Shown here: one piece after another, positions 1 to 26,269 of the stretch
Layout of the letters: each line of letters opens with the position of its first letter
Numbering within the stretch: the stretch's first letter is position 1
Sequence record: PX393109.1
DNA: 64,000 nt
Strand: one strand, 5' to 3'
Source: a phage
Translations under genes and position numbers: made by a program
Notes under the pieces: model-generated
What the model was told of the DNA's origin: nothing
Databases searched by the model: none
The model's input: the letters and a program-made list of their open reading frames with translations, nothing else

Positions 1-1164
1 GTTGGTGATGATCGGGAGCGGGTTCGTGAGGCTAATGCTGCTCTTCCGGAATATGAAGATCGTGAGAAGTATGCGATGTTCTACTCTAACACTATCCCAG
101 TTCAGGATAGCACGAAGCGCCTCGCAGTGGTAATGATTAAGATCCGCCGTATGTCAGAGCACGAGTCATCAGAGTTAGGTCTTCTGAGTCTTATCCAGGC
201 ATTGGTAGCTAATCATGCTGATATGAAAGCCTATATCGAAGAGTGCGAAGATCCTACAGTAATCAATAGTGGTTATACAGAGTTCAGCGACTTCTATAAC
301 ACTACGGTGCTGGTGAATCCTCCTAGCTATCGTGATGTTGGCATCAGCAATGGGGTAATGTCGTATCATCCGACTAACTTACTCTACCTGCGAATCCTGC
401 GCCATGCTATCCGTATCAGAAGTATTCGCGATACTGCCGAGGCCAGCGAAGCGTTGTTATCTCTGATTCCTCGTGAATCTATTGTAATGCAGAAGATGGT
501 TAACGGACTAATCCTGGAGGGCACTAAGGACTATCGAGGTAACTTAATTAAGCCGATGATCAATAATCTTAAAGGTAAGGGTGGTCGAATCCGTGGTAAC
601 CTGTTAGGTAAGCGCGTTGATTACTCCGGTCGTTCTGTAGTTACTTCGGCTCCGCATCTTCCGCTGGATACTCTTGGTGTACCGTTCAAGATGATGTACG
701 AATTACTTCAGCCAGACATCCTGGGTGAGCTGGAGAACTTATATGGTGGCCCGACTAACGAAGGGTACAACATGTACGACATCAGCAATAAAGTCCAGCG
801 TATGTACAAGAATAAGTCCCGAGTAGCTCTGGAAGTATGCTGGAGACTGTGTGAGAATGCCACGGTGTTCATGAACCGTGCACCATCCCTACACCGTTAC
901 TCAGTATGGGGATTTAAGGTCAGACCTCACATGGGTAAGGAGATTCAGGTTCCTCCGATGGCTATGGGTGGTCAGAACATGGACGTGGATGGTGATACCG
1001 CAGCAATTCACCGTGTACTGACTGATCGTGCTTGCTGGGAAGTACGTAGCCTGATGATGGTTAACCAGAACATCAACAGCTCTATTGACTTCGATAGTCC
1101 GGTCGTGAAGCCGTCCCACGAAATGGTGGTAGGTCTGTTCCAGGCAACTACGGTGGATATGTAA
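1..1164 (+). CDS. Multisubunit RNA polymerase beta'-like protein, N-terminal-half homolog (5' end outside window)
   Basis: Frame is open from base 1. Motifs [33 protein letters not shown] and MDVDGDTAA match bacterial beta' ([41 protein letters not shown]). Protein stops shortly after the catalytic loop, i.e. a split beta'. Confidence 0.75.
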   Translation, partial: [387 protein letters not shown]

Positions 1165-1694
1165 TGAAGAAACATGCTATCGGTGAGAAAGATGTTGGTA
1201 GAGTTATCCACTTCGAGGGTACTCCCGAACGCGGTCTGGACCCTGCGGGCTATATAACAATCTTCTCAGATGCATCGTACTGTCATAAGAGTAAGGCTGC
1301 TGGTTTCGGAGGATGGATTCGTCTTCCTGGTGAGCAGCGAGCTCATATAACTCGCGGAGGATTTACTGCTGTAGATAATAACTGGGCAGAGCTAGAAGGG
1401 ATCATGAAGACCCTATGGTTTGCCATGACTAAGACAGCATTCGATGGTGTTAGGGTAGTCGTCCAATGCGATTGCGAATGGGCATTAAAGGAATTCATAG
1501 ATAAGCATATGGAAATGCTTCGCGATCTTAACCCTAAGTCCATTAAGGTTAAGCATGTCAAAGGTCATCAGAAGTTCAATAATCCTCGCTACAAAGTAAA
1601 TAATCTCTGTGATGAGATAGCTAAGCAGGAAATGGTTAAGTATAGAAATAAACTTAAAGGATACACAGATGCTGGGATTTTTAGTGGTGCATAA
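1164..1694 (+). CDS. RNase HI-like ribonuclease
   Basis: IFSDAS, NNWAELEG, QCDCEW and KGH..N..CDEIA align with RNase HI catalytic D/E/D/D positions; start overlaps upstream stop. Confidence 0.7.
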   Translation: MKKHAIGEKDVGRVIHFEGTPERGLDPAGYITIFSDASYCHKSKAAGFGGWIRLPGEQRAHITRGGFTAVDNNWAELEGIMKTLWFAMTKTAFDGVRVVVQCDCEWALKEFIDKHMEMLRDLNPKSIKVKHVKGHQKFNNPRYKVNNLCDEIAKQEMVKYRNKLKGYTDAGIFSGA

Positions 1695-1968
1695 GGAGCA
1701 CGGTGCTCTCTGTGGAGTAAACGAGTTTTACACCTCATGGACCGGTCTCGGCTGTAATCCAGATACCACCGCAGCATTCTTCGAGACTTATGAAGAGGCT
1801 GGATTAATATCTGAACTGTTGCAAGATCCAAACGTATCAGTATTCGGACCAATCTATCAAGACTCTGAAGTAACTGATAAGATTCCTGTAAGTATTGTGG
1901 AATCGTTGGGTATCAAATGCTCCTACTATAGGCAGGAGCCCGAAAATAAACTACCATGGCCATGGTGA
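1669..1968 (+). CDS. hypothetical protein
   Basis: ORF in the + gene array; true start uncertain because it overlaps the upstream gene end. Confidence 0.4.
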   Translation: MLGFLVVHKEHGALCGVNEFYTSWTGLGCNPDTTAAFFETYEEAGLISELLQDPNVSVFGPIYQDSEVTDKIPVSIVESLGIKCSYYRQEPENKLPWPW

Positions 1969-2480
1969 TAAAAATGAATAAAGCTGAAGTAGTGTTAGGA
2001 CTTGTACAGTCCGTGGACGAGGGTTACTCCTCGGTAAAATTCTGTCCAGACTCTGATGCCTGGATAGATAATCTTAAGCAGGTTATCTCTGAAGTAGCTG
2101 ATTATGATAAGCTTAACTTCGATACCGGTCACGATAACCACTGCACCCTTATGTATGCTCCGGGGACTGGTGCTCCGGATGAGGGAACTATTGCTGATCT
2201 GGTAGGTAGCAAACTTCATCTGAAGAATCCTCGCTATGAGATCTTCGGTGAGAATGCTAACTACCTGGTGCTGGCGTTCGATAGCGATCTGCTACAATCG
2301 TTTAACTATCGACTCCGTGCATCTGGGGAGGTACCGTCTGAGATCAGTGCGGAATACTCTCCTCACATAACTCTGGCCAAGGACGTAGAGAATCTGGATA
2401 TCTCTACTCTACCAGAATTACCGACCGATCTGTATTTAAACATCACTAGCGTAACTGCTGAGGAAATCAAGAATGACTAA
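1956..2480 (+). CDS. 2H phosphoesterase family protein (LigT / cyclic phosphodiesterase-like; Acb1-like candidate)
   Basis: Two H-x-T-x motifs (HCTLMY and HITLAK) about 76 residues apart in a 174-aa protein. Confidence 0.6.
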   Translation: MAMVIKMNKAEVVLGLVQSVDEGYSSVKFCPDSDAWIDNLKQVISEVADYDKLNFDTGHDNHCTLMYAPGTGAPDEGTIADLVGSKLHLKNPRYEIFGENANYLVLAFDSDLLQSFNYRLRASGEVPSEISAEYSPHITLAKDVENLDISTLPELPTDLYLNITSVTAEEIKND

Positions 2481-2817
2481 GAAGACTACTGGTAACAAAA
2501 TTAACCTGGACATGTTTCATCTGATGTATGCTAAGCAACTGGGTATGGAACCTGCTGCTTACGCTGCTAAGGTTAATTCAGACCAGGAGTTCCGTCACCA
2601 GGTAGAGACTGCGTTCTCTGGGTATGCAGTAGCTGTAAATGCTCTTCGCCTCCAGATCATCGGTGGCTCTAAGCTGTCTATTGAAGAGATAGCTCCTGGT
2701 GTGGCTAAGATCCGTCTGGGAGTGGGTGAGTGGGAGTTAGACAATACTCCTAAGAATACAGAAGTAGCTCTGGATGATTTCCTGATCTCCAGTAACTTTC
2801 TGACTGCCGCCGTTTAA
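2473..2817 (+). CDS. hypothetical protein
   Basis: ORF with overlapping start, followed by a terminator. Confidence 0.55.
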   Translation: MTKKTTGNKINLDMFHLMYAKQLGMEPAAYAAKVNSDQEFRHQVETAFSGYAVAVNALRLQIIGGSKLSIEEIAPGVAKIRLGVGEWELDNTPKNTEVALDDFLISSNFLTAAV

Positions 2818-2825
2818 TACGGTCC

Positions 2826-2875
2826 AAAGGCTGTTAACTTGGGGAACGCCCTCGGTTAACAGCCTATTTTTATTT
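2826..2875 (+). terminator. Rho-independent terminator (stem contains AAAGGCTGTTAAC)
   Basis: aggctgttaac ... gttaacagcct inverted repeat followed by atttttattt. Confidence 0.65.
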
Positions 2876-2892
2876 ACTCGTTAAGGTACGAT

Positions 2893-3198
2893 ATGAAGTC
2901 CACTAAACCAGTCGAATTCTTTGACTTACTGACCACCATGGCCATAGCTGGTTACACATCCGATGATCCCAACATGGTGGTTAAGAATATTGCTCGTCGG
3001 AATAAGAAGTTCTTCCCATCTGCTGATCGTAAGATGCTGGATGTGGTAATTAACCATAAACACCCAGCAGCAACTGTAATTAAGGCGGTATCTAATCTGC
3101 TAGGCACTGAAGTGGACGCTAAGTACATAGCTACTGTAATCCACACTACCGGAAGATTTTATCATAAGGTGGTAGCTAATGATTCTGTATCATCGTAG
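2893..3198 (+). CDS. hypothetical protein
   Basis: ORF after terminator. Confidence 0.55.
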   Translation: MKSTKPVEFFDLLTTMAIAGYTSDDPNMVVKNIARRNKKFFPSADRKMLDVVINHKHPAATVIKAVSNLLGTEVDAKYIATVIHTTGRFYHKVVANDSVSS

Positions 3199-3529
3199 TA
3201 AGCATAAATGGGATTGGCCTAGTTATGAGCTCATCCAGACCTTATCGCAGGGATGGGGTCCGGAGTTAGGCCTATATACCTGTAATGTAGATAATCTCTA
3301 CAATAGCCATGGGACCTATCTTTACGAGATAACTCTGAAGAAGTTCATTCGTCCCAGAGTGATTACAGTTACCGAGCTTAAGCATGTGCGAGATCTTGCC
3401 GCTATGAGAGAAGTCTTTATGGAGCAAGGATGGCAGGTGCTTAAGGTAGTGGAAGATAATGGGGAGTCTGTAATCTTCGTTATCATGGATATGGACTGTA
3501 TTGATACCATCGTTCGACACGAAAAATAA
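3179..3529 (+). CDS. hypothetical protein
   Basis: ORF; overlaps upstream end. Confidence 0.5.
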   Translation: MILYHRSKHKWDWPSYELIQTLSQGWGPELGLYTCNVDNLYNSHGTYLYEITLKKFIRPRVITVTELKHVRDLAAMREVFMEQGWQVLKVVEDNGESVIFVIMDMDCIDTIVRHEK

Positions 3530-3642
3530 AACGTTTTATTTTTCAAATAAACGATTTTTGAACCGTCCTAAAGCCCGTTCTTGTGGGCGGGGGCGTCAAG
3601 GCGCTTCCCGGTTCATCAAATCGTCTAATTTGGGATAAAACT

Positions 3643-3927
3643 ATGAAAATCGCTCAACTGCTCGCTGCTCTGGCAAATGACACTCTGGTAACTGACTACA
3701 TGGGTGTTTCAGTAAACTACAATTCCAACTGGGTAAGTGCGGTTGGTGAAAAGATCATCGGTTTCAAAGCTTACACTGGTCCAGAAGTGTTTCCTGAAGA
3801 AAGTCACTTCGCTTCCGACGGTTCTGATACAGTCGAGATGCTGGACCCAGGTACCGGTGCAGTGGTGGCTAAGTGTGAGGATGGTCTGTTCGAAGCGATC
3901 TTCGAAGAAGTAGACGTCCAGTTCTGA
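3643..3927 (+). CDS. hypothetical protein
   Basis: ATG (MKIAQLL) chosen inside the longer track ORF 3583..3927. Confidence 0.5.
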   Translation: MKIAQLLAALANDTLVTDYMGVSVNYNSNWVSAVGEKIIGFKAYTGPEVFPEESHFASDGSDTVEMLDPGTGAVVAKCEDGLFEAIFEEVDVQF

Positions 3928-3936
3928 TTCCAATCT

Positions 3937-3954
3937 GGAGGACTTCGGTCCTCC
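3937..3954 (+). terminator. Stable hairpin with CUUCGG-type loop
   Basis: ggaggac-ttcg-gtcctcc; followed by a TATAAT-like hexamer and GGAG. Confidence 0.5.
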
Positions 3955-3986
3955 TAATTCTTCCCCTTTATAATTTGGAGCTAATT

Positions 3987-4361
3987 ATGACTAACCAAGA
4001 ATTCATTCAAAAGTTCGACGCTAAAACTGCTTTCGAGAACATGCTGGCAGAAGTAGAATCAATGATCAATATGTCCGATTTGGTGGCTACTCCAGAAGTC
4101 CGCGAAGTACGTGGTCAGGTTTACGTGAGTGGTTCTACCGAGGACGTTATGTGCCAGATGAACATCCCGATGTTCAAATCCATGTGGATCCATATCTCCG
4201 GAGGCCCTCTGGATGACAAGACTGGTGCATGGTTCGAAGTTGGTTACCGCTACGAGCACCACGATGGTGGTTCGAATGGCCACCGTATTGCCCAGTTCGT
4301 GGTTGATATGAGTGGCGAAATCACGGTTCGTCGTCCGACTTTCACTAAAGAAGCAAAATAA
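3987..4361 (+). CDS. hypothetical protein
   Basis: ATG preceded by GGAG. Confidence 0.55.
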   Translation: MTNQEFIQKFDAKTAFENMLAEVESMINMSDLVATPEVREVRGQVYVSGSTEDVMCQMNIPMFKSMWIHISGGPLDDKTGAWFEVGYRYEHHDGGSNGHRIAQFVVDMSGEITVRRPTFTKEAK

Positions 4362-4371
4362 GGGGATCCTC

Positions 4372-4590
4372 ATGAACAAGCTCCGCTACCGTCTTGCTGT
4401 CCAGGTCAATGGTGTCCACTCCTTCACCATCCAGGGTAATGCTCCGAGTGCTCGTAAGCTGATAGAGCAATTCCAGACGTGGTACAAATTTATGGAGCCG
4501 GAGCTTGCTTATCAGGAGATAGAGTATCTACCGATGCGTGCTGACACACGCGACGTTAAAACCGAACTTTCCGTAACTCGTATTGCATAA
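4372..4590 (+). CDS. hypothetical protein
   Basis: ATG (MNKLRY) after upstream stop. Confidence 0.5.
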   Translation: MNKLRYRLAVQVNGVHSFTIQGNAPSARKLIEQFQTWYKFMEPELAYQEIEYLPMRADTRDVKTELSVTRIA

Positions 4591-4602
4591 CTTGGTGATA
4601 AA

Positions 4603-5016
4603 ATGAAGAAATTAATTGCTGCTTCTTTGATTCTGGCATCAGTCACAGCCCATGCTGGTAAAGATCCTCGTGTAGCTTCTGCTATGGAAGCTGATGTCAT
4701 TACTGCACTGTTGGCTAAGTCGTATGTTGAAGAGTGCCCAGAGTACAGTCTTGCTGAAGTGTTGTACTCTGCTAAAGAAGCGATGGTCCTGCCTGTTATG
4801 GATCATGGGCATAAGTCAGCAATCGTCCAGTTTAATGGCATAGGGTCTGATGGTAAGCCAGCAGTGATCCGCTCCCTGATTCATCTGGATCCGGTAGAAG
4901 TAGTTACAACTTTATCCGTAGAGAAAACTGGTGCGACTAAGGAAGATCTCAGTGACGCTAATGATCTGATCCTTCCATCCCTATGCACCGTAGCTGCGAA
5001 CGAATCTTTCCGTTAA
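4603..5016 (+). CDS. secreted/periplasmic protein of unknown function
   Basis: N-terminal signal peptide MKKLIAASLILASVTAHA. Confidence 0.6.
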   Translation: MKKLIAASLILASVTAHAGKDPRVASAMEADVITALLAKSYVEECPEYSLAEVLYSAKEAMVLPVMDHGHKSAIVQFNGIGSDGKPAVIRSLIHLDPVEVVTTLSVEKTGATKEDLSDANDLILPSLCTVAANESFR

Positions 5017-5047
5017 TATAGTATAATCTAATCTGTTAGGAGTTATT

Positions 5048-5359
5048 ATGAAAAACATCGATATCGCTAAACTGTTCCTTATATCTCGTCTGTATCGTCT
5101 GTCTAATTCTTCCTCGATGATTCTGTGGTATATCTCCGGAACCGCTTCGGGAGCCACGATCAACGAGTTAACTGTCTTTGCTGATAGCAAAGCATCACTG
5201 GGTCAAATCCCTCGTACGTCCATCTATTATGTATGTAATAAGTTGGAGAAGGATGGCTGGTTGATCAAAACGACCACTGCCTCGGAAGAGGGTGGTCGTC
5301 CGTGCAATTTATACTCTCTGAGCCATCGTGCTCGTTTCTTCCTCGACCTGAATAAGTAA
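5048..5359 (+). CDS. winged helix-turn-helix DNA-binding protein (putative regulator)
   Basis: ELTVFADSKASLGQIPRTSIYYVCNKLEKDGWLIK resembles a wHTH recognition helix plus wing; SD AGGAG upstream. Confidence 0.5.
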   Translation: MKNIDIAKLFLISRLYRLSNSSSMILWYISGTASGATINELTVFADSKASLGQIPRTSIYYVCNKLEKDGWLIKTTTASEEGGRPCNLYSLSHRARFFLDLNK

Positions 5360-5368
5360 GGTGCCGCT

Positions 5369-5749
5369 ATGTCTGTATACTTCAGAGCCGTAGTTGGTGG
5401 TCACGTAGTCGATGAAGATAACGTCAAGATCGTAACGACGAGTCTTGTTGGGTTACGGGACACTATTAACAAGGATGACCTCCTCCCGATTCACTACAAC
5501 ACTATTGTAGACCAATTAATTCAGGTGGAAACCGAAGATGGTCTATGCGGAAGCTTAGCGGAGCGAGTTGCTCAACCTATAGATCTGCTGGGTCTGTCCT
5601 TAAGGACCTCAGCTCTTCTTGATGAGCAACATGAGAATATGACTGTGGATCAAATTAAGTTCCTGGTCAAATTATCGAAGATGCTTACTGCCTTAGCTGC
5701 AATCAGTCATACCTATACACTGATAACAACAAATCTAATGTGGAGCTAA
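5369..5749 (+). CDS. hypothetical protein
   Basis: ORF. Confidence 0.55.
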   Translation: MSVYFRAVVGGHVVDEDNVKIVTTSLVGLRDTINKDDLLPIHYNTIVDQLIQVETEDGLCGSLAERVAQPIDLLGLSLRTSALLDEQHENMTVDQIKFLVKLSKMLTALAAISHTYTLITTNLMWS

Positions 5750-5751
5750 CC

Positions 5752-6048
5752 ATGCCTTCCGTAATCATTAAGTCTAAGCACCGAGCCCTGCTGCGTGCGG
5801 CTCAGTCCAAGAATCTGACGGAGATCACTAATATCGATCTCCATCCGAATACTCGCTACCATGACTACTTTATCTCCACGACGTTTATCGTGCTGGATAA
5901 AGATAAGGCGAAAGTAATCAAGAGCGTGGATAACCTCTTCGTCGAAGGCGAGATCATCCCTCTCCAGGATCTGTTCTCTAAACTGTCAGATGTGGAGCAG
6001 TCTACTCCTGCTACGAAGCATCCTGTCGACGTCCATATTTCCTTCTGA
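5752..6048 (+). CDS. hypothetical protein
   Basis: ATG with GGAG SD directly after upstream stop. Confidence 0.55.
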   Translation: MPSVIIKSKHRALLRAAQSKNLTEITNIDLHPNTRYHDYFISTTFIVLDKDKAKVIKSVDNLFVEGEIIPLQDLFSKLSDVEQSTPATKHPVDVHISF

Positions 6049-6055
6049 GGTAATT

Positions 6056-6262
6056 ATGGGATATAAGCTCTTTGAAACTAAGGAGCAGGAGGAGCGCTTC
6101 CTGAAGATGATTCGGGAAGGCTCCGCCATGAATACTCCTCGCAGTCCTGACGATCCTGGGTATAGAAGTGGGTGTAAGTCTATTACCCAGGAATTCAGTT
6201 CAACAGTCTACCGCTCGCAACATCCTTACGTGAGCGGAGGCAACTTAACTAAGGTCCGCTAA
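6056..6262 (+). CDS. hypothetical protein
   Basis: ATG (MGYKLF) with SD GAGG. Confidence 0.5.
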   Translation: MGYKLFETKEQEERFLKMIREGSAMNTPRSPDDPGYRSGCKSITQEFSSTVYRSQHPYVSGGNLTKVR

Positions 6263-6423
6263 TGGAATGGGTAAGAGCATTGATGGTCATGAGTAGGCTA
6301 AAGCCTATCTGCCCAGATGACATAATCCGGACTCGTGATGGATTGGTTATGTACCGTCAGGGTCACTTATCTGACCAGGATAAATCTGAAATCGGAATCT
6401 ATAGGTTCACTGATGGCTTTTAA
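6262..6423 (+). CDS. small hypothetical protein (53 aa)
   Basis: ATG overlaps upstream TAA (TAATG); below the ORF-track size cut-off. Confidence 0.3.
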   Translation: MEWVRALMVMSRLKPICPDDIIRTRDGLVMYRQGHLSDQDKSEIGIYRFTDGF

Positions 6424-6790
6424 ATTAATGGACAGAACCAAGATCCTGCATACCGCTGTAGAGAATGGTGGTTATGAATGCCGTACAGATAATAATTCTG
6501 TGAACATGGCAAACATCTCTACCTGCCTTAAGCTGGTGAGTGAAGGATTACTCTTCCACGGAACCACTGAACAGGATGCATATGACAAGCAGGTTAAGTG
6601 GTTCCATCCGACTCTTACTGGTATCTTAGTCGATACCCAGGAGAAACTGGCTTACCTCATTAATCGGGATAAGCCTCTATCTAAGAGGAAGTCTGAGATC
6701 CTGAATGCTAAACGTATTCTGGAAGATAAGCCTAACCTCGCATCTGTATTAAACGAAGATATCTTAAAATTAATTAGGGATTATAAATAA
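6413..6790 (+). CDS. hypothetical protein
   Basis: Start chosen at MAFKLMD inside track ORF 6335..6790. Confidence 0.45.
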   Translation: MAFKLMDRTKILHTAVENGGYECRTDNNSVNMANISTCLKLVSEGLLFHGTTEQDAYDKQVKWFHPTLTGILVDTQEKLAYLINRDKPLSKRKSEILNAKRILEDKPNLASVLNEDILKLIRDYK

Positions 6791-7032
6791 TGGCCATTCT
6801 GGTATTCGCCAAAGATCAACGGCAGTATAACGACTACATCCGTGCCAAGCACCTTACTCGCTCTGATGCTGTCTACGCCAGCTGTGTTAATAAGCTACGT
6901 GGTCTATTTCCTAAGCCTACTGAGATGCACTTGCTGCCTAATTGGGATCATAGTGGACCATCCCAGATGGCTATGGAAAAGGCTAAGACTCTCTTTCCAC
7001 AAGCAGTAGAGAAGTCTATCGAGCAGTGGTAA
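6790..7032 (+). CDS. hypothetical protein
   Basis: ORF; start overlaps upstream stop. Confidence 0.55.
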   Translation: MAILVFAKDQRQYNDYIRAKHLTRSDAVYASCVNKLRGLFPKPTEMHLLPNWDHSGPSQMAMEKAKTLFPQAVEKSIEQW

Positions 7033-7059
7033 AATTATTTTTCAAATAAACGAATTATG

Positions 7060-7085
7060 AACGGGTTTAAAGCCCGTTCTTTTGG
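7060..7085 (+). terminator. Rho-independent terminator
   Basis: aacggg-tttaaag-cccgtt followed by cttttggg. Confidence 0.6.
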
Positions 7086-7146
7086 GTGGGGCGGCTCCGG
7101 CGGCTCCAGTCCACTAACTTAGTATAATCTAATTTTGGAGAAAATA

Positions 7147-7254
7147 ATGTCAACTAAACTCATCCGCTTCGTAGATCGTTACAGCTGGGCTCTGGTATTT
7201 GGTCTGAGCTTTGCATTCTGGGCTGCTGTTGTTGCTATCTTCCACTTCGCATAA
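7147..7254 (+). CDS. small hydrophobic peptide (35 aa)
   Basis: ATG after TATAAT and GGAG; one predicted TM (WALVFGLSFAFWAAVVAIFHF). Confidence 0.4.
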   Translation: MSTKLIRFVDRYSWALVFGLSFAFWAAVVAIFHFA

Positions 7255-7265
7255 GGAACTCTATC

Positions 7266-7637
7266 ATGACTAACTTAGAAAAAGACGTTACCGTTTGTCG
7301 TGTTGATTCTTACCAGCCTGGTAAGCGTACAATGCTGTCTAACTCCACTTATCTGGAGGGAAGTCACTGCCTCGCCTATTTCGTGATGGATCCTAAAGCT
7401 AACCCAGAAGTCTATGATGAGTGGAAGGCTAAAATCCACGAAGCCTCAAAAGCTAATACTGGCCTGATGGTTACATACGGTCCTCGCACTCCTAAGTGGC
7501 CAGGCATCTTCGGTTCTCCGAATCTCTGGTGTGTTGATCTTAGCGAAGGCGACACAGCTCGTTATATCAAGCTGATGTCGATGCTCCTTCCGAGCCTGGA
7601 AGGAATTGTGGGTCTAGAGCAAGTTCAGGTACGATAA
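7266..7637 (+). CDS. hypothetical protein
   Basis: ORF. Confidence 0.55.
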   Translation: MTNLEKDVTVCRVDSYQPGKRTMLSNSTYLEGSHCLAYFVMDPKANPEVYDEWKAKIHEASKANTGLMVTYGPRTPKWPGIFGSPNLWCVDLSEGDTARYIKLMSMLLPSLEGIVGLEQVQVR

Positions 7638-7638
7638 A

Positions 7639-7806
7639 ATGAAAATTCCGACTCTTGATCAATTACTCACCACAGCAATGCACACGGTGATCCGTCGTCT
7701 GGTCTGGAATATCCCTAAAAAGTATTTCTGGATGGTGGTGTTGGCCACCATCATTATCAGCGGATTCGCCACTTTTAGAACTCTGTTTTGGAGCCTGTTA
7801 GGATGA
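7639..7806 (+). CDS. small membrane protein (55 aa)
   Basis: ATG directly after upstream stop; hydrophobic segment WMVVLATIIISGFATF; below ORF-track cut-off. Confidence 0.35.
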   Translation: MKIPTLDQLLTTAMHTVIRRLVWNIPKKYFWMVVLATIIISGFATFRTLFWSLLG

Positions 7807-8561
7807 CCTTCCGTATTGATGCTGTTCGCCACCTTCGCCAAATAGCCGAGCTTAAGAAAGCCCATGGTGATTCCGTGTGGCATGTTAGGGCGTATGATCG
7901 TGCAGCCCGTTCCTTGGATGATTACCCGTATGGTGTAACTTCCCAGATGAACTTCACTACAATCCCATGGATAGGTGCTGGGATTGCTAGCGAGTTAGAA
8001 GCCTTCGCTAAGTATGGCACCATGACTCCTAAGTTCATTGAACTTATGTCTAAAGTCCCAGAAGGTCGTGTTGCTTACTCCACTGAGGTTAAGGATATCA
8101 TTGAGTCCTACCTAACGGAAGTGACCAAACTGAGTCTTGCCGAGGGTAGCTCTGGTCGTATCTCTACAGCTGGTTCGGTACGTCGTGGTAAGATGTGGAT
8201 TCGCGACGTAGACCTGCTTACTACCTTCCCTCCAGAAATAGTTCGCCATGCTTTCCGTCTTACCGGTATGGAGGAACTGTATGGTAAGGATAAAAAGATC
8301 CGATTCGTCCATACTAATACTGGTATGGAATTTGATATCAAGATCTGTCCAGAAGAATCCTGGAACGCGTGCTTACTTCACTCCACAGGATCAATGCAGA
8401 ATAACGTACACATGCGTTCGGTGGCTAAGCGTATGGGCATGACTCTTAATGAGTATGGCCTGTTTAATGTAGAGACCGGTGAACGTGTGGATACTAATTC
8501 CTCTGAGGAAGAACTGTATCAGCTGCTTGGTCTGGAATACGTAGAACCTGAGAATCGCTAA
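7803..8561 (+). CDS. DNA polymerase X family (Pol beta-like) nucleotidyltransferase
   Basis: GSVRRGK plus DVDLL nucleotidyltransferase motifs; HhH-like N-terminus; C-terminal LLHSTGS..N..MR..A...G..L.EYGLF thumb-like motif. Confidence 0.7.
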   Translation: MTFRIDAVRHLRQIAELKKAHGDSVWHVRAYDRAARSLDDYPYGVTSQMNFTTIPWIGAGIASELEAFAKYGTMTPKFIELMSKVPEGRVAYSTEVKDIIESYLTEVTKLSLAEGSSGRISTAGSVRRGKMWIRDVDLLTTFPPEIVRHAFRLTGMEELYGKDKKIRFVHTNTGMEFDIKICPEESWNACLLHSTGSMQNNVHMRSVAKRMGMTLNEYGLFNVETGERVDTNSSEEELYQLLGLEYVEPENR

Positions 8562-8563
8562 TT

Positions 8564-8599
8564 CCGCTCTTTTAGGGTGCTAAAAGGCTGTTAAAGTGT
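8564..8599 (+). promoter_or_regulatory. Conserved motif A copy (candidate phage promoter)
   Basis: ccgctcttttagggtgctaaaaggctgttaaagtgt; SD and ATG (8626) follow within 27 bp. Confidence 0.5.
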
Positions 8600-8625
8600 C
8601 AATCCAACCGTAAGGAATAACAAAG

Positions 8626-17778: not shown

Positions 17779-18322
17779 ACTTAGGTTAGCTCCTCATCTG
17801 TACAATAGAATGCTGAAAGAGTTGATGGATGCCGTAATGACTTATGGCCAGACTCAGCAGCTCCGTACACATCTGGCTAAGGTAGTGGATCAATACGTAG
17901 AGCCGGACCATCCACATACCAGACCCGCTCCTCAGTTTTATCAGGCAACATGGTCTTGGCGTAGCTGGGAAGTAAATGCCGTAATTACTGCAGAAGATTA
18001 CAAACTACTAGAATCTCGTCCGGATGTTAAGGTAGTCATGAGAGACTTCCGTGGCTATGGTAACGATGAGGAGTTCTCCTTCTCAGATTTATCGTTTACT
18101 CCCATCGATGCTGGTATGGCATCTAACTTCGCGGTAATGAGTTGCTCAGTAAACGAAGAGGTACTATTCGATCTCTTATCCGCAGTTAAGTTACAGATTC
18201 AGAGAGATGAGGTAATTGAAGAGATCGGATGCAACCGCTGCGGTGGTGCTGGTCAAGCAGTGATAGACCATGGCGAGCTCGGTATTGAGCATATGGTATG
18301 TCCTCATTGCAATAAGAAATAA
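17765..18322 (+). CDS. hypothetical protein with C-terminal CxxC...CxxC
   Basis: ATG with SD CAGGAG; GCNRCGG...CPHCNKK. Confidence 0.55.
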   Translation: MMNSKLRLAPHLYNRMLKELMDAVMTYGQTQQLRTHLAKVVDQYVEPDHPHTRPAPQFYQATWSWRSWEVNAVITAEDYKLLESRPDVKVVMRDFRGYGNDEEFSFSDLSFTPIDAGMASNFAVMSCSVNEEVLFDLLSAVKLQIQRDEVIEEIGCNRCGGAGQAVIDHGELGIEHMVCPHCNKK

Positions 18323-18332
18323 GGAAGTATCT

Positions 18333-18887
18333 ATGAGTAGTAATCGTAATGTAGTGGAAGAGACTCTGGACTTAATCAACAATCTCTTCCGCAGTAAATT
18401 AAGTGGTGATCTCAATGCTATGGAGTTCACCATGAGCCGTAAAGAAGTAGCAGACATCCTCAATCACGTGAAGATGTCTATCACGAATAACTGCGTCGCT
18501 ATTCCTGATGGTCTGCATCCTGATACTCGTGAGTTGGTTCTGGACTTCGCTGGGAAGATGGCTAAGAAGTTACATAAAGCCCAGGTTAAGTATGGATTCA
18601 CCAACGGATGGCGTCATCCTAACTGGGATACGGCTAAGGGTAATGATCAGTTCGAAGACCCTACCCAGTGCATCATCGCATTTAGCCACCATATCGATAA
18701 GGGTGATCCTGTCGACGTGGCTAACTACTGCGCATTCATGGATTGGCATGGATGGTCCGCTAAATATGTCCCTGCCCCACACACTGTCACCATCGACAAT
18801 AAGGGTATGGTAGGGTCCATTAAACCAGCAACCGAGCCTGGATATGGGACCGATTATGTTGGTAGCATAGGAGACATGCCTCAGTGA
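18333..18887 (+). CDS. hypothetical protein
   Basis: ATG (MSSNRNV) with SD AAGGAAG. Confidence 0.55.
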   Translation: MSSNRNVVEETLDLINNLFRSKLSGDLNAMEFTMSRKEVADILNHVKMSITNNCVAIPDGLHPDTRELVLDFAGKMAKKLHKAQVKYGFTNGWRHPNWDTAKGNDQFEDPTQCIIAFSHHIDKGDPVDVANYCAFMDWHGWSAKYVPAPHTVTIDNKGMVGSIKPATEPGYGTDYVGSIGDMPQ

Positions 18888-19111
18888 ATAAAATAATGAT
18901 GATGGGTATACTCGAAAATATTGTAACCCTTATCTGCATGACTGTTCTAGTATTGGGCCTTTATTATATGGGAGCATCATGGTGGTCGGCTATACCTGGG
19001 CTATTGGTATTCAATCTTAGTTCTGTTAAGTATAAGGAAACTAAGTCTGTTGGTCACCCAGAGAATACCACACCAACTGGGGAGGTTGCTGCTCCTCCTA
19101 AGGACAGATAA
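18884..19111 (+). CDS. small membrane protein
   Basis: Two hydrophobic segments. Confidence 0.5.
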   Translation: MNKIMMMGILENIVTLICMTVLVLGLYYMGASWWSAIPGLLVFNLSSVKYKETKSVGHPENTTPTGEVAAPPKDR

Positions 19112-19422
19112 TGGAACAGTTCCGCATTGAATTAAAGATATGGAGCGCAGATATCGGGGAACGCCCTCCGGAGGGGGACGTTAACTGGAGAACTGCCTAC
19201 TGCATTTTAGGTCCTGTTAATGAAGAAGACTGGACTTTAGATAAAGATAAGGCTACTTTGCTTAGTTATGACCGTCTGGATGAGCTAAATCTGTTCGGTT
19301 TAGCTGCAAGATGCCGTAATTCCCTACGTTTATCTAACTGGGAACTAGGCTCCGTGAACATAATTAAGCTGGTAGATCCTGAGCTTATCCATATCAACAT
19401 AACGATAGATAAAGAGTATTAA
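19111..19422 (+). CDS. hypothetical protein
   Basis: ORF. Confidence 0.5.
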   Translation: MEQFRIELKIWSADIGERPPEGDVNWRTAYCILGPVNEEDWTLDKDKATLLSYDRLDELNLFGLAARCRNSLRLSNWELGSVNIIKLVDPELIHINITIDKEY

Positions 19423-19432
19423 GGAGCTTAAA

Positions 19433-19666
19433 ATGGATAAAGAGTTAAATGGTGCAGAAGAAGATGTTCTGTACAAATTATTCTGGTTCGGACCAGCAGC
19501 AGACGGAGACCTACCATCTAAATCTGGAGCATCTGGCTTGGTAGATAAAGGATTAGCTGCCTGGTTTAAGGGTAATAATCTCTGCCCTAAGATTTATGAT
19601 GACCGTAACATGTGTATGCTTACTTCCCTTGGGGTAGACTTAGCCAGAAATAAGTATACTAAATAA
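19433..19666 (+). CDS. hypothetical protein
   Basis: ORF with SD AAGGAG. Confidence 0.5.
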   Translation: MDKELNGAEEDVLYKLFWFGPAADGDLPSKSGASGLVDKGLAAWFKGNNLCPKIYDDRNMCMLTSLGVDLARNKYTK

Positions 19667-19668
19667 AA

Positions 19669-19704
19669 CCGCTCTTTTGTACGGTCAAAAGGCTGTTAAA
19701 CTGT
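19669..19704 (+). promoter_or_regulatory. Conserved motif A copy (candidate phage promoter)
   Basis: ccgctcttttgtacggtcaaaaggctgttaaactgt. Confidence 0.5.
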
Positions 19705-19714
19705 AGAGGTTATT

Positions 19715-19746
19715 CCTATAGAGCATCTGATGGTGCTCTATGTGAA
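19715..19746 (+). promoter_or_regulatory. Conserved hairpin motif B copy
   Basis: cctatagagca-tctgatgg-tgctctatgtgaa, followed by tandem taggagatat x2 and ATG (19779). Confidence 0.45.
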
Positions 19747-19778
19747 TAGTCTTAGGAGATATTAGGAGATATTAAGAT

Positions 19779-20138
19779 ATGTTTGAGAAATTAAAATCTA
19801 TATTTAAAACTGTTCCAGCAATTCCCTTACTGACTAAATCGGAAGAGCGACTAGCTTATGAGAATATGATCCGTACTGGGGACCCTACCGAATTTATCAG
19901 AATGTTGGATAATGACGAAATCCGGATGATTCGTAAAGATACATGGACTTGGGTAAGCGCTAATGGTGTAATCCATGTCTATAACGATATTTACGGTCCG
20001 GAAGTTAAGCTGGGAGGAGTAAGTGCGTTAATTGACTGTAATGGTGATGCTTACGGTCTATCTTACGAAGATGGTAAGAGAGTATATAACGCAATCTGGG
20101 ACTCCTGCGACCGCTCCAGGAGGATGGCTCATGTTTAA
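19779..20138 (+). CDS. hypothetical protein
   Basis: ORF. Confidence 0.55.
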   Translation: MFEKLKSIFKTVPAIPLLTKSEERLAYENMIRTGDPTEFIRMLDNDEIRMIRKDTWTWVSANGVIHVYNDIYGPEVKLGGVSALIDCNGDAYGLSYEDGKRVYNAIWDSCDRSRRMAHV

Positions 20139-21065: not shown

Positions 21066-21101
21066 CCGCTCTTTTTAGGTGCTGAAAGGCTGTTAAGGTG
21101 T
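21066..21101 (+). promoter_or_regulatory. Conserved motif A copy (candidate phage promoter)
   Basis: ccgctctttttaggtgctgaaaggctgttaaggtgt, then AGGAGA and ATG. Confidence 0.5.
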
Positions 21102-23784: not shown

Positions 23785-23820
23785 CCGCCGTTTCTTACCC
23801 TCGAAAGGCTGTTAAATTGT
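23785..23820 (+). promoter_or_regulatory. Conserved motif A copy (candidate phage promoter; variant CCGCCGTTT)
   Basis: ccgccgtttcttaccctcgaaaggctgttaaattgt, then AAGGA and ATG (23847). Confidence 0.45.
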
Positions 23821-24560: not shown

Positions 24561-24873
24561 GCTTTGTCGGGTGGTTAATATACGTACCAATCCTAACTAC
24601 GATTTATATGTTGGGAGAGGTACTATATTCGGGAATAAGTGGAGCCATAAAGATTTACCTAACGCTATTAACGTAGGTTCCCGAACATTAGCCATCGCGA
24701 AATACAGACTATGGTTCCACCAGCAAGTAAAAGATGGCCACATAAGCATCTCCTACTTACGGACTCTTAAGGGTAAGACTTTAGGGTGCTCCTGCTTACC
24801 GTTACCATGTCATGCTCAAGTTATAGCTGACTTCGTTAATTCATTACCTGACGAAGATTCCGCTCTTTCGTAG
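24550..24873 (+). CDS. DUF4326-like protein
   Basis: VNIRTNPNYDLYVGRG...GNKWS resembles the DUF4326 N-terminal signature; start overlaps exonuclease end. Confidence 0.45.
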   Translation: MESKLCRVVNIRTNPNYDLYVGRGTIFGNKWSHKDLPNAINVGSRTLAIAKYRLWFHQQVKDGHISISYLRTLKGKTLGCSCLPLPCHAQVIADFVNSLPDEDSALS

Positions 24874-24895
24874 CCTCCAAAGGCTGTTAAACTGT
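24860..24895 (+). promoter_or_regulatory. Conserved motif A copy (candidate phage promoter)
   Basis: ccgctctttcgtagcctccaaaggctgttaaactgt; the 5' half overlaps the stop of the upstream gene. Confidence 0.5.
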
Positions 24896-25136: not shown

Positions 25137-25516
25137 TGTCTCATATGACCCGAGAAGAAATCGTATTGATGGTGGCTAAGGTGTGTCACGAAGCTAATCG
25201 TGCATACTGCCATTCTATCGGAGACTTCACCCAATTAAGCTGGGAAGCAACATCCGATGAAATAAAACAGTCGGCTATTGATGGAGCGTATAACTGCTTA
25301 CACAATAACCGTATCAGCCCAGAAGAGTCCCATGAATTCTGGGTTAAAACTAAAAAGGAGCAGGGCTGGAAGTATGGAGAAATCAAAGATCTCGCAGCTA
25401 AGACGCACCCGTGTATGGTTCCATATTCACGGTTGCCGGAAGAGCATCGAGTCAAAGATCACCTCTTCACCAGCATCTGCGCAGCATTCATTAAACAGTA
25501 CAAAAGGGCATCATGA
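25136..25516 (+). CDS. RyR-domain-like protein
   Basis: [20 protein letters not shown]...[20 protein letters not shown] resembles the bacterial/phage RyR-domain consensus. Confidence 0.45.
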
Positions 25517-25983
25517 TGACCGTAGTTCAAGTAAAGAAAACTATTAACTGGGACGACTCTCTGGAGTTACCGAAATACGCTAAAGCTGGTGATGCTGGTC
25601 TTGATCTTCGTGCGATGATTAAGACTGACGAAATCGATAAAATCGCTGTAAATCCTGGCGAAACTATCCTGGTCCCTACCGGTCTAGCGATCAACATCGG
25701 CGATCCGAACATCGCTTCTGTGATTCTTCCCCGCAGCGGCCTCGGCCATAAAAATGGCATCGTACTGGGTAACTTGGTTGGTCTTATCGACTCCGGCTAT
25801 CAAGGAGAACTGATGGTGTCTGTGTGGAACCGTAGTAACGAATCTTTCGTTATTAACCACGGCGACCGTATCGCTCAAATGGTGTTTCTTCCCGTTATCC
25901 ATCCAGAGCTCCAGCTTGTGGATAAATTCTCTGATGTTTCTGAACGTGGCGACGGTGGGTTTGGCCATTCCGGGATTAAGTAA
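25513..25983 (+). CDS. dut: dUTP diphosphatase (dUTPase)
   Basis: [44 protein letters not shown] and DRIAQMVF motifs. Confidence 0.9.
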
Positions 25984-26065: not shown

Positions 26066-26269
26066 ATGATGGATATTGAGCAACTAACTAAGGATCTTAA
26101 TCGTAACCAGATTACGGTTATTCGTTCGGAGCACTTAGCTCCCAAGACTATGATCGTGTCTGATGATATCTGGGGCACATTCAAGAATAATAATAATAAT
26201 AATAATAATAATGCTACTGTAGAAGCTACAGATGAAGAATCTGTTAAGAACATGCTGGAGCATCCGTAA
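26066..26269 (+). CDS. hypothetical protein with poly-Asn tract
   Basis: Start MMDIEQ with SD GAGGA; contains the (AAT)9 repeat. Confidence 0.5.
   Translation: MMDIEQLTKDLNRNQITVIRSEHLAPKTMIVSDDIWGTFKNNNNNNNNNATVEATDEESVKNMLEHP
26185..26211 (+). repeat. (AAT)9 trinucleotide microsatellite
   Basis: aataataataataataataataataat, in frame, encoding N9. Confidence 0.9.

What the first reader, a model, noticed from the sequence alone, without database searches (positions are those of the whole stretch)
1..1164. Phage-encoded split multisubunit RNA polymerase beta' homolog
The first ORF carries the beta' double-psi beta-barrel catalytic region (GRSVV..., [8 protein letters not shown], DVDGD) and stops shortly after the catalytic loop. 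That is the arrangement of split beta' subunits of jumbo-phage RNAPs (phiKZ-type), yet it sits next to a compact Mu/P2-like tail module. The combination implies host-independent transcription and is unusual for this tail architecture.
Basis: partly seen in the sequence, partly recalled or inferred. Interest (0 to 1): 0.6.

Follow-up and report, generated by a model that had tools for sequence, protein, structure and literature searches.

The report
Phage split β′ without a β subunit

Summary
Window 1-1164 (+) is the last 387 codons plus stop of a 522-aa gene, with [13 protein letters not shown] and the catalytic loop NMDVDGD (Pfam Rpb1 domain 2, E=1.6e-23). The window is 97.9% identical to Escherichia phage vB_EcoM_IME392 (116 kb). 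There a separate 504-aa gene 1.9 kb upstream encodes the β′ C-half, so β′ really is split.

The phiKZ interpretation does not hold. The nearest solved relatives are bacterial β′ (E. coli, E=4e-50). AR9 is marginal and phiKZ undetected. In relatives β′ is unsplit (Va2, RHph_Y65) or split in the other gene order (RP13).

No β subunit is detectable in the complete IME392 or Ab1-TPeters genomes by tblastn, unfiltered phmmer, motif scan or profile-profile comparison. About 50 YerA41/Arash-type loci all carry an obvious β beside β′. The β-less lineage instead conserves three unknown proteins next to the β′ genes. It also has a ~35-nt promoter-like element, 25 copies on one strand.

Best reading (about 0.45): the phage β′ pairs with host β/α/ω as a hybrid polymerase. 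Main rival (about 0.25): a cryptic β among the unknown proteins. The tail module is generic and starts 29 kb away.

The parts
1..1164 (+). 3' part (387 codons plus stop) of the gene for the N-terminal half of a split, bacterial-type RNAP β′ (Rpb1 domains 1-2). The full gene is 522 codons; its first 135 codons lie upstream of the window.
   Evidence: Translation. Pfam Rpb1_2 E=1.6e-23. Full-length orthologue has Rpb1_1 E=5e-14 plus Rpb1_2 E=3e-23. E. coli β′ E=4e-50. P0001 is 100% identical over the fragment. Purifying selection shown.
628..642 (+). GRSVV, within the conserved [12 protein letters not shown] block that precedes the double-psi β-barrel
   Evidence: K339 R340 D342 S344 G345 R346 are invariant in the 13-member family alignment.
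874..897 (+). NRAPSLHR motif (NRAPTLHR in E. coli)
   Evidence: N427-S436 are invariant in the family.
976..996 (+). Catalytic Mg-binding loop NMDVDGD, a variant of NADFDGD with the Asp triad intact
   Evidence: N461 and D463 are invariant and D465, G466, D467 nearly invariant; the family consensus is NADFDGD.
1164..1694 (+). RNase H-like gene whose ATG overlaps the β′-N stop codon (ATGTAATG). It is probably co-transcribed and translationally coupled. The synteny is kept in metagenomic relative L014.
   Evidence: Pfam RNase_H E=1.8e-8. A faint RNase_H gene lies directly after β′-N in L014.
2807..2842 (+). Promoter-like element CCGCcgTTT-N10-AAAGGCTGTTAAC. The core pairs with an inverted copy at 2855-2867 followed by a T-run, giving a terminator-like hairpin.
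8564..8599 (+). Promoter-like element CCGCTCTTT-N10-AAAGGCTGTTAAA-gTGT, upstream of the NAD-ligase gene
14600..14635 (+). Promoter-like element, same consensus
19669..19704 (+). Promoter-like element, same consensus
21066..21101 (+). Promoter-like element, same consensus (core AAAGGCTGTTAAG)
23785..23820 (+). Promoter-like element, same consensus
24860..24895 (+). Promoter-like element, same consensus

Best explanation
Shown: window 1-1164 encodes the C-terminal 387 residues of the N-terminal half (β′-N, 522 aa) of a split, bacterial-type RNA polymerase β′. It belongs to a ~115 kb E. coli myovirus of the IME392/EP_H11 group, whose DNA is probably thymidine-hypermodified. β′-N carries the zinc finger, clamp helices, the [12 protein letters not shown] block and the Mg-binding Asp triad. 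A separate 504-aa protein (β′-C), encoded 1.9 kb upstream of β′-N outside the window, supplies the bridge helix, the second zinc site and the trigger-loop Arg/His. No β subunit is encoded. Inferred: because a β′ cannot form an active centre without the second double-psi β-barrel and its lysine pair, the two β′ pieces most likely assemble with the host's β, α2 and ω. They would displace or out-compete host β′ and create a hybrid polymerase. Three lineage-specific proteins that always sit beside the β′ genes would act as assembly and/or promoter-specificity factors. These are A486 (~400-486 aa, all-α), B251 (directly upstream of β′-N) and C228 (directly downstream of β′-C). The hybrid would read the phage's own CCGCTCTTT-N10-AAAGGCTGTTAAA promoters on modified DNA while host transcription is shut down. 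The identity of the gene is near certain. The hybrid mechanism is an inference with no direct evidence.
For: Identity: Pfam Rpb1_2 at 84 bits and Rpb1_1 at 53 bits on the full-length protein; E. coli β′ E=4e-50 with aligned zinc finger and catalytic region; β′-C aligns to E. coli β′ 570-939, including the bridge helix, all four Zn2 cysteines and the trigger-loop R/H. Functional and under selection: 34 synonymous to 0 nonsynonymous and 88 to 9 codon differences; Asp triad and Cys4 conserved in 13 family members; in Ab1-TPeters a group I intron sits inside the NAD|FDGD codons and splicing would restore the motif. No β: tblastn of E. coli RpoB gives no hit at E<=10 in the whole IME392 genome, while RpoC gives 1e-50 and 1e-27. 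Unfiltered phmmer with YerA41, Arash and E. coli β finds nothing in IME392, the window or the whole Ab1-TPeters genome. No RHGNKG, GEME, NxEDS or NMQRQ motif occurs in any frame. The phage-collection tblastn searches list no IME392-type or Rhizobium-phage hits. Contrast: all ~50 YerA41/Arash-type viral loci have β fused or adjacent at E<=1e-67, and the 9 β-less loci with A/B/C hits do not. Accessory module: A486, B251 and C228 are syntenic with the β′ genes in IME392, EP_H11, Ab1-TPeters, RP13, L014, L015, L016 and L018. They are not β: hhalign probability is below 1%, none has an invariant Lys, and the A486 model is all-α with no fold match. Own promoter class: 25 copies on one strand and none on the other, mostly 25-90 nt upstream of a likely start codon (one at 179 nt and one with none found), with a related core in Ab1-TPeters; σ70-type sites are depleted, 25 against 40.3±5.8. 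No σ, α or ω homologue was found among about 70 other proteins. From established knowledge: E. coli β′ split artificially in this same inter-domain region still assembles into active enzyme, and cyanobacteria split it naturally there.
Against: There is no direct evidence of any contact with host β. The phage β′ is only about 31% identical to E. coli β′, which is more divergent than bacterial β′ proteins are from each other, so compatibility with host β is not obvious. The lineage infects α-, β- and γ-proteobacteria, so the interface would have to be re-tuned repeatedly. I found no precedent for β′ replacement by a phage in the literature I could search. The folds of B251 and C228 remain untested: the C228 model failed at pLDDT 29.5. 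The three accessory proteins total about 840-965 aa, close to the 924-aa YerA41 β. A486 gave a faint Rpb2_3 hit at E=0.097. The last ~160 residues of β′-C cannot be aligned to E. coli β′, so the C-terminal clamp and ω-binding region may differ.
Confidence: 0.45

Rival explanations
1. A complete, host-independent phage RNAP. The β function would be supplied by phage proteins diverged beyond recognition: A486, B251 and C228, or other unknown ORFs, acting as a fragmented β. This gives a five-subunit enzyme analogous to phiKZ or AR9 nvRNAP, and it is the first reader's functional claim.
For: Five genes (β′-N, β′-C, A486, B251, C228) form a conserved module in every close relative. The accessory proteins sum to about 840-965 aa, close to the minimal 924-aa β of YerA41. 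A486 shows a faint Rpb2_3 match at E=0.097. The folds of B251 and C228 could not be determined. Known phage RNAPs such as the crAss-like enzymes escaped sequence detection for years (own knowledge).
Against: hhalign of each family against a 40-sequence β profile gives probability below 1%. Profile searches against PDB sequences find nothing. None of the three families has an invariant lysine, whereas the β barrel needs a conserved Lys pair. The A486 model is all-α with no RNAP-like fold match. A β that had vanished from sequence space while its partner β′ kept E=1e-50 similarity to bacteria would be an unprecedented rate asymmetry. In the sister YerA41-type lineage both subunits stay easily detectable.
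Confidence: 0.25
2. A non-polymerising role. The phage β′ would act as a decoy or dominant-negative subunit that sequesters host β, σ or elongation factors to shut off host transcription, or as a scaffold for other phage factors, without synthesising RNA itself.
For: Absence of β. The clamp-helix region that binds σ is retained (alignment). Phages commonly target host RNAP (general knowledge).
Against: Every catalytic element is conserved across a family only 34-48% identical to the window's protein apart from one 75% relative. This covers the Asp triad, the NRAPSLHR block, the bridge helix and the trigger-loop Arg/His. A decoy would not need these. The group I intron insertion in the catalytic-loop codons is typical of essential catalytic sites. 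A 1,026-aa two-gene decoy is an expensive solution.
Confidence: 0.1
3. A phiKZ/AR9-type jumbo-phage msRNAP subunit carried by a reduced genome.
For: β′ is split after the catalytic barrel as in phiKZ and AR9. There are weak tblastn hits to AR9/PBS1 and Staphylococcus jumbo-phage β′ at E=1e-4 to 1e-6.
Against: Bacterial β′ scores about 45 orders of magnitude better than AR9, and phiKZ is not detected. There are no β halves, no second (virion) set, and the genome is 111-116 kb. Members of the same lineage have an unsplit β′ (Va2 1192 aa, RHph_Y65 1127 aa, L019-L023) or the opposite gene order (RP13, L015, L016). The split therefore arose within this lineage.
Confidence: 0.03
4. A pseudogene or recently captured fragment of host rpoC.
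For: The nearest solved relative is E. coli β′. The ORF corresponds to only the first ~518 residues of RpoC.
Against: Identity to E. coli RpoC is only 31-35%. The complementary C-half is present as its own gene. Purifying selection is strong. Orthologues of 34-75% identity occur in phages of Acinetobacter and Ralstonia and in metagenomes.
Confidence: 0.01

Closest known systems
Bacterial RNAP β′ subunit (RpoC), e.g. E. coli
   Same: Same domain order and motifs: zinc finger, lid and clamp helices, [11 protein letters not shown], NRAP(T/S)LHR, the Asp-triad loop, bridge helix, second Zn site and trigger-loop R/H. It is the best-scoring solved relative.
   Different: Only about 31% identical. 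It is encoded as two proteins (522 + 504 aa = 1,026 aa against 1,407) and lacks the SI3 trigger-loop insertion. The last ~160 aa cannot be aligned. It is phage-encoded with no cognate rpoB beside it.
Cyanobacterial/chloroplast split β′ (RpoC1/γ + RpoC2)
   Same: β′ is divided between the catalytic barrel (Rpb1 domain 2) and domain 3. Residue 53 of phage β′-C aligns with residue 13 of Synechococcus RpoC2 (8syi_Z).
   Different: The phage break lies roughly 40-50 residues earlier, at about E. coli residue 518-537 by my estimate. The origin is independent, since relatives are unsplit. Gene order is C-half before N-half here. The cyanobacterial enzyme has its own β.
YerA41/Carin-5/Arash-type phage msRNAP (mid-sized phages with hypermodified T)
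   Same: Mid-sized myoviruses (143-181 kb), related A-family DNA polymerase, T-hypermodification genes, bacterial-like β′ split at the same place (YerA41 556 + 518 aa).
   Different: Those phages always carry an obvious β, either adjacent (YerA41, 924 aa) or fused to β′-N (Arash gp206 and about 45 IMG/VR loci). They lack A486, B251 and C228. β′-N is only about 24% identical to the window's protein.
phiKZ/AR9 non-virion and virion msRNAPs of jumbo phages
   Same: Phage-encoded double-psi β-barrel RNAP with β′ split after the catalytic barrel, plus an extra phage-specific subunit (gp68/gp226) that could be functionally analogous to A486, B251 or C228 (own knowledge).
   Different: The sequences are far more divergent (AR9 E=7e-5, phiKZ undetected). 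Those enzymes have split β subunits and two enzyme sets, and the genomes exceed 200 kb. None of that is found here.
YonO-type single-polypeptide β′-like RNAP (SPβ prophage)
   Same: A phage/prophage RNAP related to β′ that works without a separate β (own knowledge).
   Different: YonO carries both barrels in one chain and lacks most β′ domains. The protein here is a full-architecture β′ with only the β′-type barrel.

Membership tests
RNAP β′ / Rpb1 superfamily, N-terminal half | Pfam RNA_pol_Rpb1_2 (catalytic double-psi β-barrel) above the gathering score | tested here: met
   84.3 bits against a cut-off of 25.3, E=1.6e-23, covering the full profile 1-166.
RNAP β′ / Rpb1 superfamily, N-terminal half | Pfam RNA_pol_Rpb1_1 (clamp core with zinc finger) above the gathering score | tested here: met
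   The window fragment alone scores 20.1 bits, below the 39.7 cut-off, because the N-terminus is cut off. The full-length orthologue scores 52.7 bits. The four Cys are invariant in the family.
RNAP β′ / Rpb1 superfamily, N-terminal half | Mg-binding Asp triad in the NADFDGD loop | tested here: met
   NMDVDGD at nt 976-996. D463 is invariant and D465 and D467 nearly invariant in 13 homologues.
Split β′ (two-gene β′) | Domains 3-5 encoded by a separate gene in the same genome | tested here: met
   A 504-aa protein at L001 8203-9717 has Rpb1_3, Rpb1_4 and Rpb1_5 hits and aligns to E. coli β′ 570-939. It lies outside the window.
phiKZ/AR9-type jumbo-phage msRNAP | Closest sequence affinity to phiKZ/AR9 β′ proteins | tested here: not met
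   The listed PDB hits are all chains deposited as bacterial-type β′. Against phages, AR9/PBS1 score E=7e-5 over 31% of the query and phiKZ is absent at E<1e-3.
phiKZ/AR9-type jumbo-phage msRNAP | Cognate β subunit (split into N and C parts) encoded by the phage | tested here: not met
   No β by tblastn, unfiltered phmmer or motif scan in the complete IME392 and Ab1-TPeters genomes or in the window.
phiKZ/AR9-type jumbo-phage msRNAP | Two paralogous sets (virion and non-virion RNAP) | tested here: not met
   RpoC and β′ queries find exactly one β′-N and one β′-C in the genome.
phiKZ/AR9-type jumbo-phage msRNAP | Jumbo genome above 200 kb | tested here: not met
   IME392 is 116,460 bp and EP_H11 is 111,373 bp.
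YerA41-type mid-sized phage msRNAP | β gene adjacent to or fused with β′-N | tested here: not met
   This holds in YerA41, Arash and about 50 IMG/VR loci, but not in IME392, Ab1, RP13, L014-L016 or L018.
Self-sufficient multisubunit RNAP of any kind | A second double-psi β-barrel subunit supplying the conserved Lys pair | tested here: not met
   The accessory families have no invariant Lys and below 1% hhalign probability against β. The folds of B251 and C228 are undetermined, so the absence of any barrel is not proven.
Hybrid phage-β′/host-core RNAP (proposed, no known precedent) | Physical association of phage β′ with host β, α and ω | not testable with these tools
   This needs complex prediction or co-purification. 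Only single-chain prediction was available.

The most novel reading that the evidence does not exclude
A lineage of mid-sized phages with hypermodified DNA (IME392, EP_H11, Ab1-TPeters, RP13, probably Va2 and the Rhizobium RHph phages) encodes only the β′ subunit of RNA polymerase. It swaps this into the host core enzyme (host β, α2, ω) to make a chimeric polymerase. Three lineage-specific proteins retarget that enzyme to a phage-specific promoter class. This would be a previously undescribed way of taking over host transcription, lying between factor-based hijacking and bringing a complete polymerase.
Probability: 0.4. Interest if true: 0.85.

Novelty: new variant of a known kind. Interest (0 to 1): 0.62.

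Why it matters
Phages are known to control transcription in three ways. They modify the host polymerase with small factors, they bring a single-subunit polymerase, or (jumbo phages and YerA41-like phages) they bring a full multisubunit enzyme. A catalytically intact β′ under strong selection in genomes with no β fits none of these.

If the phage β′ replaces host β′, that is a new takeover strategy. It would also be a natural experiment in RNAP subunit compatibility. It makes a practical prediction: transcription stays rifampicin-sensitive but becomes insensitive to inhibitors or phage factors that target host β′. It could also explain how hypermodified thymidine DNA is transcribed.

If instead the three conserved unknown proteins are an unrecognisable β, they would be the most divergent β known, which bears on RNAP evolution.

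Either way, the annotation needs correcting. In the IME392 record this gene is labelled a β subunit, and the unqualified β′ label is given to the C-terminal half of β′.

Tried and rejected
1. phiKZ/AR9 affiliation: rejected on similarity scores and on the absence of β and of a second enzyme set.

2. Host-derived pseudogene: rejected.

3. Searching for β. I used tblastn with E. coli RpoB and unfiltered phmmer with E. coli, YerA41 and Arash β on all stop-to-stop ORFs of 50 aa or more. I ran a regex scan for four invariant β motifs in six frames. I ran Pfam or PHROGs on 20 candidate proteins and on most of the remaining proteome as concatenated ORFs. All were negative. The GS linkers I used produced spurious 'Serglycin' hits.

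B251 therefore could not be folded.

7. Literature: the IME392 paper (Arch Virol 2021) is not held. Searches for β′-only or hybrid phage polymerases found nothing relevant.

8. The exact promoter core is not conserved in more distant relatives (RP13, Va2, RHph, L018). I did not derive their own consensus sequences.

9. My by-eye alignment of the last ~160 residues of β′-C to the E. coli C-terminal conserved region was not supported by BLAST, and I dropped it.
Full report
**1. What is at the coordinates**

Frame 1 of the + strand is open from base 1 to the TAA at 1162-1164. The 387 translated residues contain [12 protein letters not shown] (GRSVV at nt 628-642), NRAPSLHR (nt 874-897) and NMDVDGD (nt 976-996). 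The ORF ends 55 codons after that loop.

Pfam gives RNA_pol_Rpb1_2 at E=1.6e-23, 84 bits against a cut-off of 25, over the whole profile. The C-terminal end of Rpb1_1 matches immediately before it.

**2. Where the window comes from, and the whole gene**

The first 6 kb of the window are 97.9% identical to Escherichia phage vB_EcoM_IME392 (116,460 bp) and 93% identical to phage EP_H11 (111,373 bp). The whole window is collinear with IME392 apart from two short replaced segments.

In both records the gene is 522 codons, so the window lacks its first 135 codons. A protein identical to the window's fragment and 522 aa long also exists in a public assembly (P0001). The full-length protein has Rpb1 domain 1 (E=5e-14) and domain 2 (E=3e-23) and nothing further.

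A separate 504-aa gene ends 1.9 kb upstream of β′-N, outside the window. It has Rpb1 domains 3, 4 and 5 and aligns to E. coli β′ residues 570-939. The aligned region includes the bridge helix, all four cysteines of the second zinc site, and the trigger-loop Arg and His. There is no SI3 insertion.

So β′ is truly split between domains 2 and 3. Here the C-half gene precedes the N-half gene. IME392's GenBank record calls the N-half a 'β subunit', which is a mislabel.

**3. The gene is functional**
- Against IME392, the 387 codons in the window differ at 34 codons, all synonymous.
- Against EP_H11 the count is 88 synonymous to 9 nonsynonymous. β′-C and the neighbouring C228 gene show the same pattern.
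- In an alignment of 13 homologues, 12 of them 34-48% identical to the window's protein and one 75%, the Asp triad, the NRAPSLHR block and the four zinc-finger cysteines are invariant or nearly so.
- In the relative Ab1-TPeters, β′-N is interrupted by a group I intron (Rfam RF00028, 66 bits, E=2e-16). It is inserted between the codons for NAD and FDGD, and splicing would restore the motif.

This rules out the pseudogene and host-fragment refutation condition. Identity to E. coli RpoC is only 31-35%.

**4. It is not phiKZ-like**

By phmmer against all PDB sequences, the best 60 listed hits for β′-N are all chains deposited as bacterial-type β′, with E. coli first at E=4e-50. No phiKZ or AR9 polymerase chain is among them.

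By tblastn against 50,697 phage records, the full-length relatives are mostly mid-sized phages:
- Ab1-TPeters, 110 kb, 37.6% identity
- RP13, 171 kb
- Vibrio phages 1.031.O, Va2 and 150E35-1
- the Rhizobium RHph phages, up to 207 kb

YerA41, GN1, Carin-5 and Arash match only the barrel region. AR9/PBS1 and Staphylococcus jumbo phages are marginal (E=1e-4 to 1e-6). phiKZ itself is not found.

In Va2 (1192 aa), RHph_Y65 (1127 aa) and five IMG/VR contigs, β′ is one unsplit protein. In RP13, L015 and L016 it is split with the N-half first. In IME392, EP_H11 and L014 the C-half comes first. In Ab1-TPeters the halves are 40 kb apart. The split is therefore a feature that arose inside this lineage, not an inheritance from jumbo phages.

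It falls in the same inter-domain region as the cyanobacterial RpoC1/RpoC2 split: β′-C residue 53 aligns with RpoC2 residue 13. The position is not identical.

**5. The unexpected result: no β**

tblastn with E. coli RpoB against the complete IME392 genome (reassembled from L001, L004 and L003), the window and the 29-kb EP_H11 locus (L002) gave no hit even at E=10. RpoC found both β′ halves at 1e-50 and 1e-27.

Other tests were also negative:
- YerA41 carries β′-N, β′-C and a 924-aa β in one operon, and Arash carries a β-β′N fusion. Using these closer β sequences with HMMER's filters off, against every stop-to-stop ORF of 50 aa or more, still found nothing. This covered IME392, the window and the complete Ab1-TPeters genome.
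- The invariant β motifs (RHGNKG, GQRxGEME, NxEDS, NMQRQ) occur in no reading frame.
- Collection-wide tblastn with E. coli β and YerA41 β finds β in YerA41-type and jumbo phages. No IME392-type phage is listed, and none of the ten Rhizobium records appears.
- Among 66 IMG/VR loci recovered with the β′-N family profile, about 50 YerA41/Arash-type loci all have β fused or adjacent at E<=1e-67. The IME392-type loci have none within 10 kb.

**6. What accompanies β′ instead**

In IME392, EP_H11, Ab1-TPeters, L014, L015, L016 and L018, three families of unknown proteins sit beside the β′ genes, and two of them (B251, C228) are weakly detected in RP13:
- A486, about 385-486 aa
- B251, about 193-251 aa, directly upstream of β′-N in seven of these eight genomes (in RP13 the weak hit follows C228)
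- C228, about 220-229 aa, directly downstream of β′-C in seven of these eight genomes (in Ab1-TPeters the weak hit lies ~80 kb away)

Together they are about 840-965 aa, similar to a minimal β, so I tested whether they are a fragmented β. The results were negative:
- hhalign against a 40-sequence β profile gives below 1% probability for each family.
- Profile searches against PDB sequences give nothing.
- Pfam has no hit on record for them.
- None has an invariant lysine.

The C228 model failed at pLDDT 29.5 with a two-sequence alignment. B251 could not be submitted. Their folds remain unknown, and that is the main gap in this analysis.

No σ, α, ω or other RNAP-related family was found among about 70 further proteins.

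**7. Transcription signals**

σ70-type promoter matches are depleted in window 1-20000: 25 found against 40.3±5.8 in shuffles.

De novo k-mer analysis of intergenic regions found AAAGGCTGTTAAA, with 8 matches at up to 2 mismatches against 1.25±1.0 expected. It is the core of a ~35-nt bipartite element, aA..CCGCTcTTTT.a.G.gTCgAAAGGCTGTTAAa.TGT.

The element occurs 25 times in IME392, always on the strand of the early/middle genes and never on the other. Most copies lie 25-90 nt upstream of a likely start codon. These include the genes for A486, the DNA polymerase and the ligase. It is the commonest 11-mer in the genome.

Ab1-TPeters has a related core, AAAGCTGTTTAAAGTGT, in the same kind of position with a different upstream half. 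L014 keeps the IME392 form before its DNA polymerase gene. I read this as a lineage-specific promoter class. Which polymerase reads it is not shown.

**8. Mechanism**

A β′ alone cannot form the active centre. The second double-psi β-barrel, with its lysine pair, comes from β (established knowledge, summarised in PMC7824862).

The evidence is a catalytically intact, strongly selected β′, no β, a conserved set of accessory proteins, and a private promoter class. The most economical explanation is that β′-N and β′-C assemble with host β, α2 and ω into a hybrid enzyme. The accessory proteins would direct that enzyme to phage promoters, possibly as an adaptation to thymidine-hypermodified DNA.

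The genome encodes a 5-hmdU DNA kinase, a thymidylate-synthase homologue, dCTP deaminase, dUTPase and glycosyltransferases. Its DNA polymerase groups with that of YerA41 (PMC12686479).

I give this model about 0.45. Evidence against it:
- Identity to host β′ is only about 31%.
- The lineage has a wide host range.
- I found no precedent in the literature I could search.

The main rival, a cryptic β among the accessory proteins, gets about 0.25. A non-catalytic decoy gets about 0.1.

Rifampicin binds β, so a hybrid would remain rifampicin-sensitive.

**9. Context claim**

The tail genes are on the opposite strand. The late/structural block starts near 28.5 kb, its large structural ORFs begin at about 30.4 kb, and the Pfam-identified tail genes lie at about 47.9-59 kb. 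It is a generic contractile tail: sheath, gpV-type spike, gp25/W-type wedge and a T4-type baseplate protein. It is not adjacent to the β′ gene and not specifically Mu- or P2-like.

Multisubunit RNAP genes in non-jumbo myoviruses are already documented for YerA41 (PMC7354516). That combination alone is therefore not novel.

**10. Verdict**

The gene is real, and in outline it is already annotated in GenBank, though mislabelled in IME392. The phiKZ-type, host-independent reading is not supported.

What appears new is a split or unsplit bacterial-type β′ in a phage lineage with no β. It comes with a conserved three-protein accessory module and a dedicated promoter-like element. I rate it a new variant of a known kind, interest 0.62. 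The hybrid-polymerase reading has probability about 0.4 and would deserve about 0.85 if true.

Noticed in passing
window 2807-2842, 8564-8599, 14600-14635, 19669-19704, 21066-21101, 23785-23820, 24860-24895 (+ strand); 25 copies in IME392: A ~35-nt bipartite element, CCGCTCTTT-N10-AAAGGCTGTTAAA-nTGT, lies upstream of early/middle genes, always on one strand. It is the most frequent 11-mer in the genome. The downstream half resembles an extended -10 (TGtTAAAgT). A related core, AAAGCTGTTTAAAGTGT, occurs in Acinetobacter phage Ab1-TPeters. It is probably a lineage-specific promoter.
   Followed up: partly
L012 15135-15446 (Ab1-TPeters record 64135-64446): A group I intron (Rfam RF00028, 66 bits, E=2e-16) interrupts the β′-N gene of Ab1-TPeters exactly between the codons for NAD and FDGD of the catalytic loop. 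The record annotates the pieces as three hypothetical proteins.
   Followed up: partly
L001 11596-13164 and 8203-9717 (IME392 record MH719082): The GenBank annotation of IME392 calls the β′ N-half a 'β subunit' and gives the unqualified β′ label to what is only the C-terminal half of β′. No β exists in the genome.
   Followed up: yes
L009 6215-10792 (Arash gp206) and about 45 IMG/VR loci (L024-L077): In most YerA41/Arash-type viral contigs, β is fused in frame to the β′ N-half (ORFs of about 1,450-1,800 aa), with β′-C as a separate gene. In some contigs β and the whole of β′ appear to be in one ORF of about 2,000-2,600 aa (for example L039, L074).
   Followed up: no
window 1164-1694 (+): An RNase H-like gene (Pfam E=1.8e-8) has a start codon that overlaps the β′-N stop (ATGTAATG). 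The same gene follows β′-N in metagenomic relative L014, which suggests co-expression with the polymerase subunit.
   Followed up: partly
window 1956-2480 (+): A 174-aa protein matches the anti-CBASS nuclease Acb1 (Pfam PF23474, E=1.4e-6, just above the gathering score).
   Followed up: no
L004 4744-5712 (-); window 25513-25983, 26269-26892, 13009-13977 (+): A thymidine-hypermodification toolkit: 5-hmdU DNA kinase (PF18723, E=3e-35), a thymidylate-synthase homologue, dUTPase, dCTP deaminase and glycosyltransferases. This agrees with the published grouping of the IME392 DNA polymerase with that of YerA41.
   Followed up: partly
window 1-20000: σ70-type promoter matches are under-represented: 25 found against 40.3±5.8 in dinucleotide-preserving shuffles.
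   Followed up: no
window 2826-2867 (+): One copy of the promoter core and an inverted copy 17 nt downstream form a perfect GGCTGTTAAC/GTTAACAGCC hairpin followed by a T-run. This is a terminator-like structure built from the promoter motif.
   Followed up: no
L002 4491-5402 (EP_H11) versus IME392: EP_H11 has an extra 303-aa ORF just upstream of the A486 gene, with a weak GIY-YIG match (E=0.026), that IME392 does not annotate. It may be a homing endonuclease insertion.
   Followed up: no
window 16712-18263 and 42976-43808: These two segments are not collinear with IME392 at the nucleotide level. The second lies in the tail-fibre region, consistent with host-range module exchange between close relatives.
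   Followed up: no
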